A DNA stretch of 34,700 nt from a virus (taxonomy: Duplodnaviria > Caudoviricetes): positions 1-34,700 of IMG/VR virus record IMGVR_UViG_3300010042_000016; one strand, 5' to 3'. Each line of letters starts with the position of its first letter. The first letter of the stretch is position 1. The position numbers were made by a program, and so were the translations under genes. The notes below the pieces were generated by a model. That model was not told the origin of the DNA, made no database searches, and saw only the letters and a program-made list of their open reading frames with translations. This document shows positions 2,015 through 32,407 of the stretch, one piece after another.

Positions 2015-5000
2015 CATTCTTTATTGATAATCCTGTCCATCTTTTCCTCAGCGGCCGCAACGGTTTCGTCATAACTGCGCTGGCTGATTGCACCCTTATC
2101 CAGCAGGCGCGCCGCCTGGCGAATCTCGCCCCGGATGGTGCCGATTTCCTTGCGGTCCTGGCCCTGCGCCATGTCGGCCGATAGCTCAAGATCGGTCGGC
2201 TTGACCTTGATGCCGAGCGTTTGCGGGATAGCGTACTTGGCTTGCACTGGCAGACCGTCCTTGCCCTTGCCGGTGTAATCCTTGAAGGGTGTTTCAATCG
2301 TGGTGTCCGCCATGTCAGCGCCGGCCTGCATCAATCGATCAGCATGGTAGCCAGTTGGCGCGATGGCCGGGCTCAGTTGCTTGATCAGCCATTCGCCGCG
2401 CTTCTTCGCCTTCTCCGTGCCGGTGTCGTTCGTGTCCACCACATCCTTGCCGGTGAACGTGTCTTTATTCCAAAGCATGGCCGCAATGGTGGTGAGCACT
2501 GGATTGCTTGGCATAATGGGCGCAGGCAGTGGCGTGCCTTCCACTTGGTTATTGATATCGAACATATCGCCGCCCGGGATAAAGCGCGACACATCCCAAT
2601 ACAGCGGCAGGCCAGTGCGCGGGTCATTGCCCAGGCGAATCGTCTTTTCAGTGCCGAGCGCTGACTTCCCCTGCATCCATGGCGGCAGGTTCTTGCGTTC
2701 CTCGGCTTCCAGTTCTTTACCTTTGGCCATCTTCTCAGCAAGGTCGTCGTCATCGTCGCCAGCGATCAGGCCGTAAGCGATGGCATTCAGCCCGGCAATG
2801 GCCAGCGCAGGAGCAGCAAAGCGCCAAGGGTAATTAGCCAGCGTGTGCGCCAATGCAGGCACGGCCTTATAGGTATAGGCAAAGAATGGGATTGCCGCGT
2901 CGCGCACGTTGCGAGCAGTCTTCGGCAAGTCGTCGTAATTGAATATGTACCGGGTAGCGTAATCCACGGCATCATCCGGCGAGGCGCCGTTCTCGCGGGC
3001 ATCGCGGTAGATGAGGTATTTAAAAAAGTCATCCTCAAAGCGGTATGCCGCCGACATAGGCCGCACCAGGCCGAACGTCAGCACCTTGTAAGTCATCTGC
3101 GATGTTTTGGTTATCTTCGAATCTTGTTGCCCCATGAGCGCCTTGATATCCGCCGGCATGTTGGCAAGCAATTCCGTCCGGGTAATGTCGCCAGTGAGCA
3201 GGCCTACGTCCTTGGCTTCATCCAGATACTTAGAACCTTTAACAAAGTCACGCAGCGCGCCGATGTATTTGTGTGTGTCCCAATAGCTCACCCCGGCAAA
3301 GTGAGCCATGGTCAAGTTTGAGACTACGTTATTCATGTGCGAAACAGGATTAAGCACCGTCTTGCCGGCCTTCCAAAACGACAAGGCCTTGCGGTAGAAC
3401 TTCAGCAGTTCGCCCGATTCTTCGTATTGCGTGATGTGCTGGATAATGTCGTCGCGTACGTAAAGCCCGGCCAGGTTGCCATACCGCTTAACGCCGCCAG
3501 TGCCTTCGATATCAGCATCCGGTATCTTGGTATATCCTTCAGAAGCGCGTGAACGTGTCCATTCCTGATTCTTGGCAATGGCATCAAACATGCGGCCAAG
3601 GGCGATATCATTCTGCATGGCGGTATAGCCCATGACGAAACGGAATAAAGCATCGCGGTTCTCGCCCATAGCTTCACGTTCTTCCGGGCTGAAGTCACGC
3701 CAGATCACCACCTTTTCAGTGTCGCGGGCCTTTTCTGCATCGATCAATTCAAGCCTGCCCTGACGGTCTTTCTTCCAAAGCGGGTCGCGCACTTCCCAGC
3801 CAAGTTGCTCAAAGGCTGGCAGTTCATCAACGGTCACTTCCTGGAATAAGCCCCGGCCTTTCAGTGAGCCGCCACCCAGGCCGCGCACCGGCAATGCAGT
3901 GCGAAGTAATTTCTTGCCGAGGGTATCAAGCGCAGGATCCTTATCACGGTTGTAGAAGCGCGGCAGATACTTTCCACGCCAGCGCTCAGCGGTATCTTTC
4001 GCCAGCATGCCAAGGTCCACCAGTTCGGACGTCTGTGCATCCATGGTCTGCGACATTGCGGCCGCTATCTTCATCACATGATCAGGCGGTGTAACGCCGG
4101 TCTTCACCATTTGCTCAACCACGTCCGAAACAAGCGCACGTTCCTCGGGCGACATTTTGTTCATGGTCTTAGCAACGCCGCTTGCTACATCCATAGCCTT
4201 CGCCATATCGGCTTTGAAGTGACGAATCTGCTTGCGCAGTTCAGGCGATGCCATGCCGAAACCTACCTTGTCGGAAAGGTTCTGCGTGACGGTCGCGGCT
4301 AAGTCGTATGCATTGCCAGTAGGTGCAAGCTGAATGCGGCCAAGCTCATCGCGGCGGAATAGCCAGTTGTCGCGGTTGTCTACGGTTACGGGCTTGCGGT
4401 TGCTGAAGTAGGTCTTTTCGATGTTAACTTTTTTATCATCAAAAACGACATAGTTGTAATTGCCATCACCTTTAGCCCTGCTGCTGCCATCAAGATATTT
4501 GATTCCTGAAATGCCTAATGAGTTTAGGTATTCGCTCGCATTCTTATCCGTTTGATAACTAGGTGTCATTCCAGCTTGTTTTTGAATGGCTGGGATTTGT
4601 AACCTGCGGTAAATATTTTCCCCTGTCGTGTCCTCGCCATATTGCAAAACAGATTTTGGAGCATTTTCAATGGCCTCCTTAACAGTTTTAGGCTGATCTT
4701 TGTAGGGCTTATCCCATAACAAATATTCGTTGTCATTCGGAATCTCAACCTCGTAAAGTTGACTGCTGCCATTGACAGCATCACGCAACTCTTGAGAAGG
4801 ATCATAATTTTCTATATCTCGATAAGCTGCACTGATAGCCTGAGAGGCATAATCAAAGCCAAGCCACCCATCAGCATCCAATGCCTTCAGAATACGGTCC
4901 TGTTCTTTTGTAAAGTGACCAGTACCAACCAAATCCATTACTTCATCAAAGTCAGCATCATCCGGCAATTCTCTTTGAAATTGCTTGATGACTTGGTTCA

Positions 5001-10569: not shown

Positions 10570-11397
10570 CTATGCATAATTATTTATATTGCCGTCGTAA
10601 TTGGTGTTCACGCCGGCAGTTTTCTTGGGCTGGGCAATAACTGCACCATTTTGTCCGGCTACATAAGCTGCTTGTTGCTGCTGATTCTTGAGAGCGTCGA
10701 AGAATCCAACCAGGCTCGTAGCATTAGCTTCGTCCTGCGCCCTGCGTGAGTTGTTGGCCATGCCTTCATAAGATTGCTGAAGCGCACTGCCCTGATCAAG
10801 TCCTGTGCGGATGCTGTCAATCAAGCTGACGCGGGTCTTATCGTCCGAACTGCGTGCATTGTTGGCAACGGATAGGCCGAGGTTGGAGGCTTTCAAAATA
10901 CCCTGCTGATTCGTGTCCAGAATTTCCCGGTTCACGTCGATATCACGACTGCCGCCAGTGAGCCCGGCGCGCGCCAGCATGAAGCCAAGGTCGCGCTCAG
11001 TCGTCTTGCGCTCTTTGTTCAGGTCCAGGAGTGCGGCATTGGTAGCGTCATTGCCTATCTTTCCGTAAAGCTGTTCGCGGCCTGCGGCAGTTTTTGTGAC
11101 GGCATCTTTTGCGGTTGTTACAGCAGCGTTATATCCAGCCTCATCAAGCTTTGAATTGACCGTGCCATCTTTGCCTGTGGATTTCGTCACGAATGATTCA
11201 CGGCTTACACCATCAGCGCCTGGCGTTGCAATCCCAAACAGGCGGTTTAGCGCTTGTACTGCTTTTGCAGTCCTGCTAGTTTCTGCTGCGGCTCGATCTG
11301 CTGCGCCACCGTCACCACTGCTGCCTTTGAATAGACGACGAGGGCGTTTGGTATCGCCAGTTGGGGGCGTGAAGTAGATTGGATCAAATTGATGCAT
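10570..11397 (-). CDS. Putative ejection protein, P22 gp7-like position (275 aa; start reassigned to ATG 11397)
   Basis: MHQFDPIYFTPPTGDTKRPRRLFKGSSGDGGAADRAAAE start; GGGGAG upstream; the longer start would overlap the HNH gene by over 120 nt. Confidence 0.6.
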   Translation of the reverse strand: MHQFDPIYFTPPTGDTKRPRRLFKGSSGDGGAADRAAAETSRTAKAVQALNRLFGIATPGADGVSRESFVTKSTGKDGTVNSKLDEAGYNAAVTTAKDAVTKTAAGREQLYGKIGNDATNAALLDLNKERKTTERDLGFMLARAGLTGGSRDIDVNREILDTNQQGILKASNLGLSVANNARSSDDKTRVSLIDSIRTGLDQGSALQQSYEGMANNSRRAQDEANATSLVGFFDALKNQQQQAAYVAGQNGAVIAQPKKTAGVNTNYDGNINNYA

Positions 11398-11878
11398 GGC
11401 AAAACTCCCCGTGGATGCGCTTGGCACACGCGGCATACGCCTTGACTGCATCATCGATATTTTCAAAATAGCCAAGATGGTGACGAACGCCATCGGCTTT
11501 ACAGCCAACACGCCACTTTTGATATCTTGCGTACCAGCTGACGCCTTTGTGACCTGATTTATTATTCGCCCGGATGCCAGTATTCATAACGTTCTGCGCG
11601 TTCGTCGCGGGCCGGAAATTAGTCCAACTGTTATTTGATTTATTTGTGTCTCGGTGATCTATCTGGAATTGTGGGAACTCGCCGTTTACATAAAGCCATG
11701 CCAGCCGGTGCGCCAAGTAGGCCTTACCAAAAATCCTGATGGAAATATAACCGTGAGAAGTTACGCTGCCAGCCAATTCACCTTTGCCAGCCCGAGAACT
11801 AAACCTTTCAACCCACGTAAATAATCCAGTGAGCGGGTCATATTCAAGTTTTGTTTTTAACTTTTCCTGGGTAAGCAT
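11384..11878 (-). CDS. HNH homing endonuclease with C-terminal AP2 DNA-binding domain (164 aa)
   Basis: YDPLTGLFTW, YLAHRLAWLYVNG, IDHRDTNKSNN (HNH_3 type), then SGHKGVSW...W...HLGYF..IDDA..AY (AP2). Confidence 0.92.
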   Translation of the reverse strand: MLTQEKLKTKLEYDPLTGLFTWVERFSSRAGKGELAGSVTSHGYISIRIFGKAYLAHRLAWLYVNGEFPQFQIDHRDTNKSNNSWTNFRPATNAQNVMNTGIRANNKSGHKGVSWYARYQKWRVGCKADGVRHHLGYFENIDDAVKAYAACAKRIHGEFCHASI

Positions 11879-16460: not shown

Positions 16461-16571
16461 GATAACTCTCCAAAAAGTTGTATAAAGTTTCTTAAACAAA
16501 CGGTTGGGTGAGTTCCATTACAACCCTTGCAGCTGGCGACTTCTGCGGTTCAGCCGGGCACTACAAAATTC

Positions 16572-17702
16572 TTATTCCAGGTCAAAGCCCATTTCGGCAA
16601 GTACTGCCTCCTCAACAGAGGTGGGCGCTGTCTTGCTGGTCATGCGGGCATTGCCGCGCAGTGGGTCGGTTGTTTGTTTCGCTGCGCCTTGCACAAGCAG
16701 TTTCTTGATCTGCTTGTAATCGCGTTCAATGATTGATGCCCATTGAGCAGGCGGGAAATTCTTGGCAATGGTGGCCATTTCAGGCAATAGCTCGTCCATG
16801 ACGGCTTCATAGTCAGGGTCGGTCTTCTTCCAGTTCGCTTGCATGGTGGCAATATTGGTGAATGCTTCTTCGCGCACCGCTTCGATCTGCTCGTTGGATT
16901 GTTGCGATTGCTGGCGTTGCTGAACCTCACGATTAGCGCGCTCAGTGATCTTTCTGCCCTTAACTATTTCAAGCGCATCATCTTCCGACAGGTCCAGGCT
17001 TTCAACCTTTGCTTTTAGCTCAGGGTATTCATCAAGCGCACTGCCTGAAATTGCCACCTTCTTGCCATGCAGAGCTTCGAACTGCTGAACCTGTTGCTCA
17101 ATGATGGCGCGGAATTTATCAACGTCGCCGGTGGCCAGCGTGTGACGGAATGCAGAGAATTCAACCAGGTCGCTTGCGGCGTTGGCATCGGTAAAGCCTA
17201 ACTGGCGGAGGCCTTCAATGGATTCTTCGTACCGCACCAGGTCGCTTGTGAGCTTCTCTACCTTGGCAACTTCGGCTTTATAGCCTTCGGTTACCTTCGT
17301 AAACCGTGCGTTCGTGTCCTTGTTCTTACTGTCAAGCGGCTTGAGGTCGTCCTCAGTGATGCCTTTCTTGGCTTCTTCGGCAGCGGTTGCATCTGCCGCG
17401 TCTTTCTTAATTTGGTCTTCAGCGCTGAGCGGCTCAGGCTTCGCTTCAGTTTCTTTATCCTTCGCTGTATCAGCATCCGCATCATCAACCACTTCAGCAA
17501 CGGTTTCGGAGACTTTTGCATTGGGGTCGTCCTTATCAAAGCCGAATTCAGCGGCAACAAGGTCTTCAGTGGAAAGCTCGGGCTCTTTTCCATCGTTGGG
17601 CTCGCCATCGGTGATGGTGGCACCAGATAGCACGCCGGACTGATCAGGATCGACTGCACAGAGGATTAAAAACGAGAGGATGAAGCGATAAAGCTTTGTC
17701 AT
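16572..17702 (-). CDS. Capsid scaffolding protein (376 aa; start ATG 17702)
   Basis: Acidic low-complexity N-terminal half and coiled coil, directly upstream of the capsid gene. AAGGTG RBS; the start lies downstream of the predicted promoter. Confidence 0.7.
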   Translation of the reverse strand: MTKLYRFILSFLILCAVDPDQSGVLSGATITDGEPNDGKEPELSTEDLVAAEFGFDKDDPNAKVSETVAEVVDDADADTAKDKETEAKPEPLSAEDQIKKDAADATAAEEAKKGITEDDLKPLDSKNKDTNARFTKVTEGYKAEVAKVEKLTSDLVRYEESIEGLRQLGFTDANAASDLVEFSAFRHTLATGDVDKFRAIIEQQVQQFEALHGKKVAISGSALDEYPELKAKVESLDLSEDDALEIVKGRKITERANREVQQRQQSQQSNEQIEAVREEAFTNIATMQANWKKTDPDYEAVMDELLPEMATIAKNFPPAQWASIIERDYKQIKKLLVQGAAKQTTDPLRGNARMTSKTAPTSVEEAVLAEMGFDLE

Positions 17703-17822: not shown

Positions 17823-18464
17823 TTACTTGATGTTTCGACTACGCCTTACAAAGGCTAATATACCCATTCCAAGAAACATTAGGGCATAGGTATCAGGTTC
17901 AGGCACTGGCGATCCAATTGGCGTGACGTTTGCAAGATAAACAAAGTCTAAAGTTCGTTTGTGAATGCCAGGGTACTCCTCATTAGTTTGAGCCATGAAT
18001 GAGCTATTAGTATCTCCTTGACCAACTTCTCTCCAACTTCTGACTTGTAAATATAGTTCTACCCAATTCCCGGTTTCCCGGTATGGGGATGTAGTTAAAT
18101 AAACGATATAGCGATGATTTGCTGGGAGCGTAACAGACTCCATATCGAAATAAACTGGCACGAAGTCTAAAGGGTTCTTTGCGACATTCTGTGAAGTTTC
18201 AAAGATTAGCGGATTATCTAGGGTATTTATGCCCGTATATTTATACACTGAAGCATGGAAAGTCAAATCATTGTAGGCATTAGCAAAGATTTGAAATGAA
18301 TCGAAAGTGACATCCCTATTGCCAACTGTGAATACCTGTCCAGCGCCTTCATTTTGGCCAAAATAATCAGTACCATTCCAAGGCCCAGCCGTAATCACAT
18401 CTGCTAGCGCATTGGTAAGGAATAAAGAAAAAATTGATGCGACTAATACTTTTGGAAAATTCAT
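17823..18464 (-). CDS. PEP-CTERM sorting domain surface protein (213 aa), moron-like
   Basis: Signal peptide MNFPKVLVASIFSLFLTNALA|D. C-terminal PVPEPDTYALMFLGMGILAFVRRSRNIK (VPEP, TM helix, basic tail). AT-rich, with its own upstream spacer and terminator. Confidence 0.92.
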   Translation of the reverse strand: MNFPKVLVASIFSLFLTNALADVITAGPWNGTDYFGQNEGAGQVFTVGNRDVTFDSFQIFANAYNDLTFHASVYKYTGINTLDNPLIFETSQNVAKNPLDFVPVYFDMESVTLPANHRYIVYLTTSPYRETGNWVELYLQVRSWREVGQGDTNSSFMAQTNEEYPGIHKRTLDFVYLANVTPIGSPVPEPDTYALMFLGMGILAFVRRSRNIK

Positions 18465-18677: not shown

Positions 18678-20195
18678 CTAAAGCCCCAACGTAGCGCGTA
18701 TGTTCCCAGTTCGCTCAATGACCTTATTGCCCTGGCTGGATTCATGTAACCCGTCAAAGGTAAATGCATTGGGGTCACCTGTTCCGCCAAACATCCATCG
18801 CCCACTATTCCTTTTGGGGAATCCTGATGGGCCAACTTCCATAATGTCGGCAATATCGATATAACCACCATTATCTGTACGTACTTCGTTGCGTATTAAA
18901 TCATTATAGGCAGTGCGAACAGCTTCATTGGCCGCCACTGTTTGATTAGCGTAGGTAGCAAATGAGTCCGAAGATGTGGCACTAGGCGCGATAGTGCATT
19001 TCCATACCCTAAGGCCAGCGGCAATTGCTAGATTTGCTAATACGTTTGTGGCAGTCAGCAAGTCAGCCGCACTTACTCCGTTAGTTATGTCATTAATTCC
19101 TGCTTGTAAAATTACATCAGTAAAGTTACTGCCTATAAATGTTTTTCTAACTGTTGAGTTAGCTGTCATCTGCGTAACCAGATCACCGCCAACTGCTAAA
19201 GATGTATAGGCATGTGTTTTACCTATTGATGGGAATATTTCACCCACGTCACCGGATTGGTCTTTATTGCCGAGGGTGGACAATGCGGCCATCTTGCTGT
19301 CACCGAAGCCCAAAAAAGACCGCTTTGCTGTGTTCCCGAGTATGCGAGTAGGCATATAAATATTGCCACCTGCTACCGTATTGCTAATGTTTCCGCCCAA
19401 TGTCAGATCGGTTATGCCCGTAGTGCCATAGTTAGCAGCTTCGCCAAGAACATTCTGGTTGTTGTTTGACGTAGTTGTGAGGAAAGTAAGTAAGCGGCCT
19501 GAACCTTGGCATACAACATAGCTACGAATCCAGAAGCGGGCATTTTTTGGAATGGTGACGGCTAAAGCATCAGATTGAAGCAGCGACACATCAGGTATGG
19601 AGCCTTGCGCAACTCCGCTGAATTTCAGTTGGGTAAATGTGCCCGCTGGATATTCTACAGATGCAGTAATGTTCATGGCACCGCCAGAGCCTACGTCCTG
19701 TCCAGATCCAGATGGTGTGGTTGTTCCATTAACACCCATTACATTGGGGAACTCAACCTTTAGGCTTGTTATTGCATCTCGCGCAATGTGAAAGCTGCGG
19801 TACATACCTTGTGTGTTAGTCGCATCTTTATTGCGCGGATAGTAACAACGTGTTGCCACTTGCCCAGTGTAAGCTGGCACTTCCCCACCCCCGCCACTAC
19901 CCAATGCTGCATAAGTGGTGCCGTTCCAGAAGTAGATTATGTTGGGTGTAACGTCATTGACTTTGTATTGAAGGCCAGCGTCAGAAGGAGTGCCGGCAGC
20001 TTGAATCGCTGCAAATCCTGCACTCGATATCGGTATCGGGATATCACTGGAATAGGGCTGACTAACAATGCTTACCGCCGCGCCTGAAGCCAATAGGGCA
20101 GTTGCATTCGCATCCGAAAGCGTATTGCCCATCCAGGCCACATACATGCCACGGTTTATATTTAAAGCGTTCTCACGAATGACCTGGATATCCAC
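18678..20195 (-). CDS. SGNH/GDSL hydrolase domain protein, possible virion-associated esterase (505 aa)
   Basis: Blocks GFGDSK, AVGG, QAGINDI and DGLH; N-terminal 100-aa domain and GSGGGG linker; no signal peptide; GTG start with GGGGA RBS. Confidence 0.85.
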   Translation of the reverse strand: MDIQVIRENALNINRGMYVAWMGNTLSDANATALLASGAAVSIVSQPYSSDIPIPISSAGFAAIQAAGTPSDAGLQYKVNDVTPNIIYFWNGTTYAALGSGGGGEVPAYTGQVATRCYYPRNKDATNTQGMYRSFHIARDAITSLKVEFPNVMGVNGTTTPSGSGQDVGSGGAMNITASVEYPAGTFTQLKFSGVAQGSIPDVSLLQSDALAVTIPKNARFWIRSYVVCQGSGRLLTFLTTTSNNNQNVLGEAANYGTTGITDLTLGGNISNTVAGGNIYMPTRILGNTAKRSFLGFGDSKMAALSTLGNKDQSGDVGEIFPSIGKTHAYTSLAVGGDLVTQMTANSTVRKTFIGSNFTDVILQAGINDITNGVSAADLLTATNVLANLAIAAGLRVWKCTIAPSATSSDSFATYANQTVAANEAVRTAYNDLIRNEVRTDNGGYIDIADIMEVGPSGFPKRNSGRWMFGGTGDPNAFTFDGLHESSQGNKVIERTGNIRATLGL

Positions 20196-22511: not shown

Positions 22512-22543
22512 AGGGTAACTCACCATTTTATTTTCCATGCGTT
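22512..22543 (-). promoter_or_regulatory. Putative late promoter (copy 4) for the portal module
   Basis: AACGCATGGAA (22543-22533), 15 nt, TACCCT (22517-22512). Confidence 0.7.
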
Positions 22544-22555
22544 GCTAATTTAGGC

Positions 22556-22582
22556 AATAAAAAAGCCCGCCGAAGCGAGCTT
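22556..22582 (-). terminator. Intrinsic terminator downstream of terL
   Basis: AAGCTCGC-TTCG-GCGGGCTT followed by TTTTATT. Confidence 0.85.
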
Positions 22583-22663
22583 AATTTTTTGTGTGCGCTG
22601 AGTGGCTCCACGCGAATAGCGAATCTAACGACCGGGCTCTCTCACTTCGGTTAACGCTCTTTC

Positions 22664-22751
22664 ATTCACAACACAGCTGATCACTTACGTTCTACTACCC
22701 GGCGAACTCTCAGCAAATCGACGCTAAGAAGTGATCAGTTGTCTTATGAAT
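22664..22751 (-). ncRNA. Candidate structured small RNA (long stem closing two hairpins)
   Basis: 23-nt inverted repeat (22664-22686 / 22729-22751, 20 of 23 Watson-Crick) enclosing CTTAGC-GTCGATTT-GCTGAG and GTTC-GCCGGGTAGTA-GAAC hairpins on the minus strand. Confidence 0.55.
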
Positions 22752-22766
22752 AAATAAATTGTACTC

Positions 22767-24341
22767 CTAAGTTCGCCCTCTGTATTTAGAAACTTTCTTC
22801 GGCTCTTCAGAGTTTTGCAGCATCCATGCCACGGTATCAGGCTCAGGCGGCGGCTTGCGTGGAGGCTTAGGCTTACCGGCATTGCGCATGCTATCCAGGC
22901 CACGGCCAAGCAAGCCCATTACGTCCACGGCATCGTCATACTTGCCGCCATTGAATTTAAGCAGTTGGCTTATTACTTCATTCACCCACTCGGTTGCATC
23001 GGTGCTTTCAGGGAAATAAACCATGTTCATCGCCATGCGGCCTTGAATGCTGCGCGCCCGGCTCGGCTTGTCTGATATCGACGATATCCAATCGATAGCG
23101 AAATAGGCCTTGCGCTCACGCATGCGCTTAGTCAGGTAAGGATTAATAGATGCCTTGATGACACCACCTTCCCCGAACCATCGCACCGTGTTCCAGCGCT
23201 GCATCAGGTCTATCTTGGTTTCAATCCACACATCGCTGGTTGTCTGCCCACGCCACCAATCGACTACATAGATATTGCCTTCGGGATCCACACCGAACAC
23301 GCCATGCTCAGTAAAGTCGCCGCCGTTCAATGTCACGGCATAATCGCTTGCGCCGTAGTAAATCAGGTTCTTCGGCAGGTTCTTGTAACGATGGATCATC
23401 TTCAGCGTGAAGAAATCACCGTCTTCCGGCGTAGGCTTCTGCTGGTACAGGCTCGACCAGGTACGCGGATTGTTCTTAAATGGCGCCCAATGCTCATGAC
23501 TGAACCACTCAGGCCATAGCGTTTCACCAAGCTTGCGATTAAGCGGGTCGTCAGCACGATCGGCAATAGCAGGCAAACAGATGACATGCCACGTTCTACC
23601 ATCGCGCCCGGCGAATATGCCACTCTCACCGTCCCATTCCTCGGGGAGAATGCGGCCGGCCGGGTCGTCCTGATGCCACCGTGTAAGTATCATGATCTGC
23701 GGTGCACCAGGTATCAACCGACTGCAGAAGTCATCCGTGTACGCTTCCCACGTCTTTTTACGGATGATGGGCGATTCTGCGGCTTCACGGCCTCGTATCG
23801 GGTCATCCAGTATGCCAAGGGCTGCACGATTACCTGTTAAGCCTGAGAGTAGGCCACCCGACATATACTCGCTGCCATTGGTCATGCTCCACTGATCAGC
23901 GGCGGCATTGTCACCGCTCAAGCCTATGCCCATGAGATTGTAGAACGATGGCGATTTAATCAGCTGCCGGGCTCGCCTGCCCTGCTTTGCAGCGATATCT
24001 GAGGCATAAGAGGCAAGGATCACATTGCGGCGCGGCTTCCTGGCCATGAACCAAGGGACGAATACCACGTCGCTGTATGTTGATTTGGCGCTACCTGGCG
24101 GCATTAGAACCATAAGATTAGGGATTAAGCCCGCTTCGACCTTCTGCAAGCTTTCAAGCAATAGGCGGTGATGGTTGGCTAAGGTGCCAAGGCGCATGAC
24201 GCTGAATCGGTCTTCATCTGCTACGTCGGTAAGTGGAACAGTGGGAATGTCCACCATAGATGCGAAGTCGACTACATTTTGCTTGGCGAGGTATTGCCTG
24301 CAAGCAAGTATATCGGCGCTACTTAACTGGGATGGAAGCAA
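22767..24341 (-). CDS. terL: Terminase large subunit (524 aa)
   Basis: Walker A MPPGSAKST, Walker B GILDDP, ILTRWHQDD, LYQQKP, nuclease SDYA...DFT and YDDAVD. Confidence 0.95.
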   Translation of the reverse strand: MLPSQLSSADILACRQYLAKQNVVDFASMVDIPTVPLTDVADEDRFSVMRLGTLANHHRLLLESLQKVEAGLIPNLMVLMPPGSAKSTYSDVVFVPWFMARKPRRNVILASYASDIAAKQGRRARQLIKSPSFYNLMGIGLSGDNAAADQWSMTNGSEYMSGGLLSGLTGNRAALGILDDPIRGREAAESPIIRKKTWEAYTDDFCSRLIPGAPQIMILTRWHQDDPAGRILPEEWDGESGIFAGRDGRTWHVICLPAIADRADDPLNRKLGETLWPEWFSHEHWAPFKNNPRTWSSLYQQKPTPEDGDFFTLKMIHRYKNLPKNLIYYGASDYAVTLNGGDFTEHGVFGVDPEGNIYVVDWWRGQTTSDVWIETKIDLMQRWNTVRWFGEGGVIKASINPYLTKRMRERKAYFAIDWISSISDKPSRARSIQGRMAMNMVYFPESTDATEWVNEVISQLLKFNGGKYDDAVDVMGLLGRGLDSMRNAGKPKPPRKPPPEPDTVAWMLQNSEEPKKVSKYRGRT

Positions 24342-31206: not shown

Positions 31207-31213
31207 GTGAAGA

Positions 31214-31271
31214 AGTTTACCCACGGGTAAATCCAATGTCAATACCTACAGGTCAATTACTTTCGGGTAAT
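31214..31271. promoter_or_regulatory. OR-like operator cluster and PR-like promoter
   Basis: Palindromes TTTACCCACGGGTAAA (31216-31231), AATACCTACAGGTCAA (31241-31256), ATTACTTTCGGGTAAT (31256-31271). Minus-strand TTGACA (31242-31237), 17 nt, TAAACT (31219-31214). Confidence 0.85.
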
Positions 31272-32296: not shown

Positions 32297-32358
32297 CGCC
32301 CAAATATTTTCAATCACTTATCTGATGTTCTTCAGGTAAACAAAATATATTAAATTTA

Positions 32359-32401
32359 TTTACCTACAGGTATTGACACGTAGTTTACCTGCGGGTAAAG
32401 T
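32359..32401 (+). promoter_or_regulatory. OL-like operators and PL-like promoter
   Basis: TTTACCTACAGGTATT (32359-32374) and TTTACCTGCGGGTAAA (32384-32399); TTGACA (32373-32378), 17 nt, TAAAGT (32396-32401). Confidence 0.85.
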
Positions 32402-32407
32402 TTACCC

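What the first reader, a model, noticed from the sequence alone, without database searches (positions are those of the whole stretch)
22664..22751. Structured RNA candidate after terL whose loops are antisense to the capsid gene leader
Seen: a 23-bp near-perfect stem encloses two hairpins, forming a three-way junction. Its minus-strand interior GC-GTCGATTTGCTGAGAGTTC-GCCGGGTAGTAGAA aligns by hand to the plus strand of the scaffold-capsid spacer 16532-16566, GCTGGCGACTT-CTGCG-GTTCAGCCGGGCACTACAA. That is 27 identities in 37 columns with 4 gaps, and two differences would be G-U pairs. The RNA would therefore pair with the capsid mRNA leader 6 kb away. Established analogy: P1 C4 and P4 CI RNAs are processed multi-loop antisense RNAs acting in trans. 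Inference: a trans-acting riboregulator of capsid expression. The alignment is gapped and could be chance.
Basis: partly seen in the sequence, partly recalled or inferred. Interest (0 to 1): 0.7.

Follow-up and report, generated by a model that had tools for sequence, protein, structure and literature searches.

The report
Stem-framed phage RNA cassette after terminase
The hairpin is real and is the first half of a roughly 220-base non-coding insertion whose second half is a conserved folded module shared with unrelated phages; the long stem is likely a cutting site for the host enzyme RNase III that would release two small RNAs, while the proposed pairing with the capsid message is no stronger than chance matches.

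Summary
Observation confirmed: the stem (23-26 bp, z -5.4 to -6.7) and the 27/37 hand alignment are there. The antisense reading is not supported. The capsid leader is the best or near-best partner in the phage, but 20-100% of shuffled queries and 53-68% of random 42-mers match somewhere as well. Relatives keep the leader without the hairpin, and four other framed interiors do not target their own capsid starts.

What is there: a ~220-nt insertion between the terL stop and a late-promoter-like motif, absent from 11 of 11 relatives examined, ending in a terminator. Its 3' half (22581-22680) is a covarying three-way-junction module with no Rfam match, found in six other viral contigs in varied gene contexts. 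In five of the six it directly follows a 16-22 bp stem that encloses an unrelated folded interior, as here.

The stem's inner helix fits the weak RNase III consensus, so I infer a processing frame that releases two small RNAs (about 66 and 118 nt), most likely protein-binding or decoy RNAs. Expression, cutting and targets are untested. Capsid-leader antisense stays a minority possibility (~0.12).

The parts
22767..24341 (-). terL, terminase large subunit; the insertion begins right after its TAG stop
   Evidence: PHROG 38, E 1e-92
22758..22763 (-). -10-like hexamer (5 of 6) placed so that +1 would be A22751, the first base of the 23-bp stem; the -35 is only 3 of 6, so an own promoter is uncertain
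   Evidence: such hexamers occur 1.4 times per kb on this strand; not listed by the promoter scan
22729..22754 (-). 5' arm of the frame stem
22687..22728 (-). 42-nt interior (module X): two hairpins with 6-nt and 11-nt loops; no homolog found
   Evidence: searches
22661..22686 (-). 3' arm of the frame stem; its outer half is also the 5' strand of module Y's closing helix (mutually exclusive pairing)
22674..22740 (-). predicted RNase III cuts after 22740 and after 22674 (2-nt 3' overhang), next to the A-C mismatch that follows a 10-bp inner helix
   Evidence: inference from consensus match 10/16 and 11/16 (consensus from PMC4357697); geometry
22581..22680 (-). module Y: conserved three-way-junction RNA; closing helix, helix 22658-22655/22621-22618, helix 22651-22648/22634-22631 with a 13-nt loop, hairpin 22613-22595 with an 11-nt loop
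   Evidence: homologs in 6 viral contigs; covariation
22557..22582 (-). intrinsic-terminator-like hairpin and U tract closing the insertion; similar to the one after the PEP-CTERM gene (17812-17793)
22512..22541 (-). late-promoter-like motif (CGCATGG, 16-nt spacer, TAnnnT-like hexamer); in relatives it follows the terL stop within 2-8 nt and so marks the insertion's 3' edge
   Evidence: promoter function is inference
16461..16571 (-). scaffold-capsid spacer, the proposed target; holds its own conserved pair of short covarying hairpins

Best explanation
The hairpin is the long frame stem of a two-module non-coding cassette inserted after terL, and it is likely an RNase III site whose cutting would release the enclosed module and the conserved downstream module as separate small RNAs. 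Shown: the insertion is lineage-specific, ends in a terminator-like hairpin, and joins an orphan interior (X) to a covarying module (Y) that unrelated phages carry next to the same kind of stem. Inferred: transcription comes by read-through from terS-terL or from a weak promoter at the terL stop. Inferred: RNase III cuts beside the mid-stem mismatch, which leaves X closed by a 10-bp helix (about 66 nt) and frees the strand that closes Y (about 118 nt to the terminator). Inferred: Y, whose loops are nearly invariant while its stems and neighbouring genes change, binds or decoys a conserved host factor rather than pairing with a phage mRNA. X most likely works in the same way.
For: Insertion: in 11 of 11 distinct relatives aligned the CGCATGG motif follows the terL stop after 2-8 nt (read), against 225 nt here; one of them (L115) carries a different ~330-nt insert at this junction. 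Of 65 distinct terL-downstream regions scanned, only the window's own copy (L106) has a stem of 21 bp or more. Module Y: 6 of 6 hits to a 17-mer extend over the module. A pattern that leaves that 17-mer largely free returned the same 6 plus 1 unrelated hit. Ten of 20 pairs change on both sides and 99% of cells pair, 0 of 500 shuffles as high; G-U variants point to this strand. Frames: 5 of the 6 other loci have a 16-22 bp stem with an unrelated interior directly 5' of Y (four, L209), and 3 have another on the 3' side. Seven of 9 frames have a 10-11 bp inner helix and then a mismatch. RNase III consensus half-site 7 of 8, reached by 0.18% of positions in the window. Gene contexts differ: terminase, helicase, recombination and lysis-facing. 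[quoted passage not shown]
Against: No RNA data show expression or cutting. The RNase III consensus is called weak by its source, and none of the best-scoring consensus sites in the other loci clearly marks a mid-frame cut, with L208 the one exception by position. The matching stagger on the two arms follows from the symmetry of an inverted repeat and is not independent evidence. Five of the 7 mismatch frames are one sequence family, so only 3 are independent; 2 frames are uninterrupted and L204 has no frame. The window's frame and X have no sequence homolog, so their conservation is untested. Folded alone, the predicted Y product is weak (z 0.19) and, with the terminator attached, prefers a different fold that uses the terminator arms. 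Only 7 Y sequences, 3 of them nearly identical; alignment A5 was fitted to the structure. The decoy role rests on conservation pattern alone.
Confidence: 0.55

Rival explanations
1. One reading: released module X pairs through its 11-nt loop with the first conserved hairpin of the capsid leader and changes capsid translation or mRNA stability.
For: Leader is rank 1 of 1359 mRNA-strand windows by duplex energy and about 4th among some 120 windows rescored for accessibility. The loop offers an 8-bp seed whose strictest form occurs once on the minus strand, at 16560. The site overlaps a conserved leader hairpin. Intergenic-only chance is 2-6% under two gap-tolerant scorings.
Against: Genome-wide chance 20-100%; 53-68% of 120 random 42-mers do as well; a coding stretch near 3421 ties or beats it under gap-tolerant scorings. 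The hexamer seed has 11 sites on the minus strand and the 8-bp seed with any G-U has 24. The site ends about 60 nt before the Shine-Dalgarno sequence. Four other interiors rank their capsid start 1273 of 3209, 1101 and 899 of 1696, and 212 of 762, though those phages have other capsid families. Only 1 of 10 relatives' leaders matches X, and that phage lacks the insertion.
Confidence: 0.12
2. The stem acts only in cis on the terS-terL message: a 3' stabiliser or RNase III decay signal (like lambda sib or T7 R sites, recalled) that, with the terminator, keeps terminase low and uncouples it from head genes.
For: It lies 13 nt after the terL stop and before a terminator; a long duplex is what such sites need.
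Against: Does not explain the conserved, covarying module Y or its presence next to unrelated genes, upstream rather than downstream of terminase in 3 of 6 loci.
Confidence: 0.15
3. The whole ~195 nt from A22751 to the terminator is one unprocessed small RNA from its own promoter, a non-coding moron in which the frame stem and Y's closing helix are alternative folds.
For: A -10-like hexamer puts +1 on the first base of the stem; the L209 array has a 10/12 sigma-70-like promoter upstream.
Against: The -35 is 3 of 6 and such hexamers occur 1.4 times per kb; no promoter was found before the L210 array.
Confidence: 0.1
4. A decayed, non-functional remnant of a longer RNA array picked up by recombination.
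For: Absent from all relatives examined; X is an orphan; only one frame is present.
Against: The window's Y keeps compensatory pairs and matches L208 at 95% over 66 nt; the stem is almost intact.
Confidence: 0.08

Closest known systems
DicF small RNA of the E. coli Qin prophage (bioRxiv 10.1101/2023.04.14.536235, passages; PMC12197685, passages)
   Same: A prophage small RNA cut out of a polycistronic transcript by RNase III and ended by a terminator.
   Different: DicF is a single base-pairing RNA with known host targets (ftsZ, manXYZ) in an early operon. Here two modules share one frame stem after terL, the module recurs in arrays with swapped neighbours, and no target or cut is shown. No Rfam match.
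RNase III processing stems of phage mRNA (T7 R sites, lambda sib; recalled) and the E. coli consensus (PMC4357697, one passage)
   Same: About two helical turns of duplex with a mid-stem mismatch; half-site match 7 of 8.
   Different: Those stems close short loops and process the mRNA itself; this one encloses a folded interior and overlaps the closing helix of a second conserved module.
C4 RNA of P1/P7 (PMC12197685, passage) and CI RNA of P4 (recalled)
   Same: Small multi-loop phage RNA; one loop could seed pairing.
   Different: C4 pairs around the ribosome-binding site of the antirepressor mRNA. Here the proposed target is a capsid leader, about 60 nt from the Shine-Dalgarno site, at chance-level strength, and no Rfam family matches.
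Stem-framed variable-cargo phage RNA cassettes
   Same: Long stem with a mid-stem mismatch, variable folded interiors, further modules between stems, tRNA-like neighbours (L203).
   Different: Those notes describe a near-constant stem sequence shared by many phages; this window's frame is a single copy with no sequence homolog found, tied to the class only by module Y and the architecture.

Membership tests
C4/CI antisense RNAs | Match to the family's sequence and structure model | tested here: not met
   No Rfam hit at gathering score in the window; at E up to 10 only weak hits, below gathering score, that overlap the terminator
C4/CI antisense RNAs | Target in an antirepressor or immunity transcript, around the ribosome-binding site | tested here: not met
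   Proposed target is the capsid leader and ends about 60 nt before the Shine-Dalgarno sequence
C4/CI antisense RNAs | Complementarity in exposed loops, above chance and covarying with the target | tested here: inconclusive
   8-bp seed in the 11-nt loop; overall strength at chance level; no homolog of the interior for covariation
C4/CI antisense RNAs | Maturation by RNase P (recalled) | not testable with these tools
   No RNA reads; ARAGORN finds no tRNA in the window
RNase III-processed prophage small RNAs (DicF type) | Duplex of about 20 bp or more | tested here: met
   26-position stem, 22 Watson-Crick pairs, 2 G-U, 2 mismatches
RNase III-processed prophage small RNAs (DicF type) | Fit to the RNase III cleavage consensus | tested here: inconclusive
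   11/16 and 10/16 here, half-site 7/8; consensus is weak and most other frames fit poorly
RNase III-processed prophage small RNAs (DicF type) | rnc-dependent ends in vivo | not testable with these tools
   No RNA run available to lay
Stem-framed variable-cargo cassettes (scan notes) | Long stem around an interchangeable folded interior, with conserved modules between stems | tested here: met
   5 of 6 other module-Y loci show it
Stem-framed variable-cargo cassettes (scan notes) | Frame sequence shared with other phages | tested here: not met
   1 hit in a P2-type replication gene and 51 hits without extended stem or similarity
Phage morons | Insertion absent from relatives, with its own terminator | tested here: met
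Phage morons | Own promoter | tested here: inconclusive
   -10 5/6, -35 3/6
Phage morons | Protein-coding gene | tested here: not met
   Only 27-50 aa frames overlap it; homologs vary as RNA helices
Catalogued self-cleaving ribozymes and riboswitches | Rfam model match for module Y | tested here: not met
   None in the window or in six homolog loci at E up to 1, apart from a tRNA-like neighbour in L203

The most novel reading that the evidence does not exclude
Phages swap small RNAs as cassettes, and this phage has loaded the frame with a self-targeting guide: RNase III releases X, whose loop opens the first conserved hairpin of the capsid leader and couples capsid synthesis to terminase transcription, while Y decoys a conserved host factor.
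Probability: 0.12. Interest if true: 0.82.

Novelty: new variant of a known kind. Interest (0 to 1): 0.5.

Why it matters
If the frame is cut as predicted, a late-operon insertion site normally discussed for protein morons also takes non-coding cassettes, and module Y is a portable, uncatalogued phage RNA whose invariant loops point to one conserved partner. With only ~220 nt, two modules and one predicted cut, this is a minimal version of the longer arrays and simple to test.

Tried and rejected
Expression: no RNA holder listed; this says nothing about expression. Homologs of the frame or interior: none in phage or plasmid records, none in 400 scored bacterial genomes (1 more not scored) or the two genomes; 11 hits to a 16-mer of the interior, mostly inside long reading frames, without extended similarity; L103 lies in a P2-type replication gene; 51 hits to a looser stem pattern do not extend. 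Module Y: not found in the phage and E. coli collections nor as a full module in 401 genomes (3 partial hits). X as an inverted or same-sense copy of the capsid-leader motif: not detected by profile HMM or covariance model. The 5' arm as a relic of the ancestral terL spacer: resembles 1 of 11 spacers (L050, p 0.004), unresolved. tRNA or tmRNA: none. Loop-loop pairing within Y: two 4-bp registers both pair in 27 of 28 cells with no two-sided change, so undecided. attC, IS-end or invertible-segment readings were considered by eye and dropped: no flanking duplication or core sites seen, and module Y varies as RNA. L106 is the window's own record and was left out of counts of relatives. The G803 capsid rank used an internal ATG and is replaced. 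Literature: searches listed no paper describing this cassette or module. The model files of the Fremin catalogue (PMC10690425; passages read, 3 of 6 held supplements searched) could not be read and may contain module Y or the leader motif.

Full report
Setting. The window is a single virus record of a temperate-looking, short-tailed phage type: terS, terL, portal, capsid and tail genes on the minus strand, recombination genes on the plus strand. The closest portal relative among named genomes is an uncultured betaproteobacterium, so the host is probably betaproteobacterial (inference).

The observation. The stem is real: 23 positions as given, 26 when extended, minus-strand z -5.44 with 0 of 200 shuffles as stable. 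It encloses two hairpins. The hand alignment to the scaffold-capsid spacer has 27 identities in 37 columns, as stated.

Is the complementarity more than chance? The leader is always near the top: ranks 13, 1 (tied), 2, 2 and 2 of 3464 windows under five scorings, 3 of 2756 by duplex energy and 1 of 1359 on the mRNA strand. It is not an outlier. Of 150 shuffled queries, 56%, 20% and 100% found an equal match on either strand under three scorings; of 300, 6%, 2.3% and 54% did so in intergenic DNA alone. Of 120 random genomic 42-mers, 53-68% had an equal or better match elsewhere, as did 7-14% of 255 intergenic 42-mers, many of them true repeats. Four framed interiors from other phages reach z -3.4 to -4.2 at their best genomic site, against -3.5 for the leader, and rank their own capsid start 1273 of 3209, 1101 and 899 of 1696, and 212 of 762. 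In favour: the 11-nt loop has an 8-bp seed whose strictest form is unique on the minus strand, but the hexamer has 11 sites and the relaxed seed 24. Among 10 relatives only L049 has a leader that matches the interior, and it lacks the insertion. The target sequence therefore probably predates the hairpin (inference).

Where the hairpin sits. In 11 of 11 distinct relatives a CGCATGG motif follows the terL stop after 2-8 nt; here it follows after 225 nt. The hairpin is thus part of an insertion of about 220 nt that ends in a terminator-like hairpin at 22582-22563. L115 has a different insert at the same junction. No distinct relative among the 65 terL-downstream regions scanned has a comparable stem.

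A 17-mer from the 3' half of the insertion hit 6 viral contigs, and all 6 align over the module. A looser pattern gave the same 6 and 1 unrelated hit. This module Y folds as a three-way junction with covarying helices: 10 of 20 pairs change on both sides, 0 of 500 shuffles as high (also on the unfitted alignment). The sample is small and three sequences are near-identical. Rfam has no match. Its neighbours differ: upstream of terminase genes in 3 loci, before a helicase, before recombination genes, and facing lysis genes.

In 5 of the 6 other loci Y directly follows a 16-22 bp stem around an unrelated folded interior, and in 3 another such stem follows it. L207 shows an alternating array, and L203 a tRNA-like neighbour. 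In the window, L205, L207, L209 and L210 the outer half of the frame's 3' arm is also the 5' strand of Y's closing helix; in L208 that strand starts just after the perfect stem. The finding's hairpin is therefore the positional equivalent of these frames. Seven of 9 frames have a 10-11 bp inner helix followed by a mismatch, from 3 independent sequence families.

Mechanism. A duplex of two turns with a mid-stem mismatch is a plausible RNase III substrate (established knowledge). The weak E. coli consensus (PMC4357697) scores 11/16 after 22674 and 10/16 after 22740, with a 7/8 half-site found at 0.18% of positions. A second 11/16 position lies at 22747, and most other frames fit poorly. Cutting would leave X closed by its 10-bp helix (z -2.96) and free the strand that closes Y. 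Single-sequence folding does not favour Y's covarying fold, so a protein or tertiary contacts would have to stabilise it. Because Y's loops stay constant across phages with unrelated genes, I infer that it binds or decoys a conserved host factor. Expression, cutting and partner are all untested.

Comparison. It works like DicF maturation and like phage RNase III stems. It is not a C4/CI member: no model match and the wrong kind of target. I saw the architecture; later look-ups showed that unreviewed notes of this scan describe the same class in other genomes. These are not independent support. My paper searches listed no description of it, but the Fremin catalogue's models could not be read.

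Verdict. Real structure and a real, wider element; headline antisense claim about 0.12; processing-frame model about 0.55; new variant of a known kind; interest 0.5.

Noticed in passing
window 16470-16580 (minus); L049, L050, L055, L104, L112, L113, L114, L116, L118, L120: The capsid leader holds two (three in L118 and L120) tandem short hairpins of the form GGCUG(A/U)...UCGCC; 6 of 7 consensus pairs have a two-sided change. No credible Rfam hit. More distant relatives have similar-looking leaders by eye, but model R1 did not detect them. Probably a cis element for capsid control.
   Followed up: partly
window 22541, 11931, 2012 and, with one change, 17763 (minus): A repeated CGCATGGA motif followed, in the first three, by a TAnnnT hexamer 16 nt downstream, in front of several late genes and conserved in relatives: a candidate phage late promoter.
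   Followed up: partly
window 17823-18464 (minus): AT-rich PEP-CTERM protein gene (PF07589) with its own terminator-like site; looks like a protein moron between portal and scaffold, beside a GDSL-like gene at 18678-20195.
   Followed up: partly
window 11384-11878 (minus): Free-standing HNH endonuclease gene among the virion genes.
   Followed up: no
window 31213-31263 and 32352-32402: 51-nt inverted repeat, 75% complementary, around the repressor-like gene; candidate operator and promoter pairs.
   Followed up: no
L115, about 2510-2840: A different ~330-nt insert at the same terL junction, bounded by two copies of the CGCATGG motif and holding hairpin-rich modules, one resembling by eye a module in L200.
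   Followed up: no
L207 (L200) and L205 (L199), around module Y: Arrays of alternating repeats of one 19-21 bp stem with a central U-U mismatch and several unrelated interiors; one interior is shared between L205 and L210.
   Followed up: partly
L215 7969-8065 (G803): The capsid gene of this provirus has two in-frame TAG codons near its start: a decayed gene or stop read-through.
   Followed up: no
window 22770-22761 and 22484-22475 (minus): A 10-nt direct repeat containing a Shine-Dalgarno-like sequence occurs at the terL stop and again before the next gene; the first copy has no start codon behind it.
   Followed up: no
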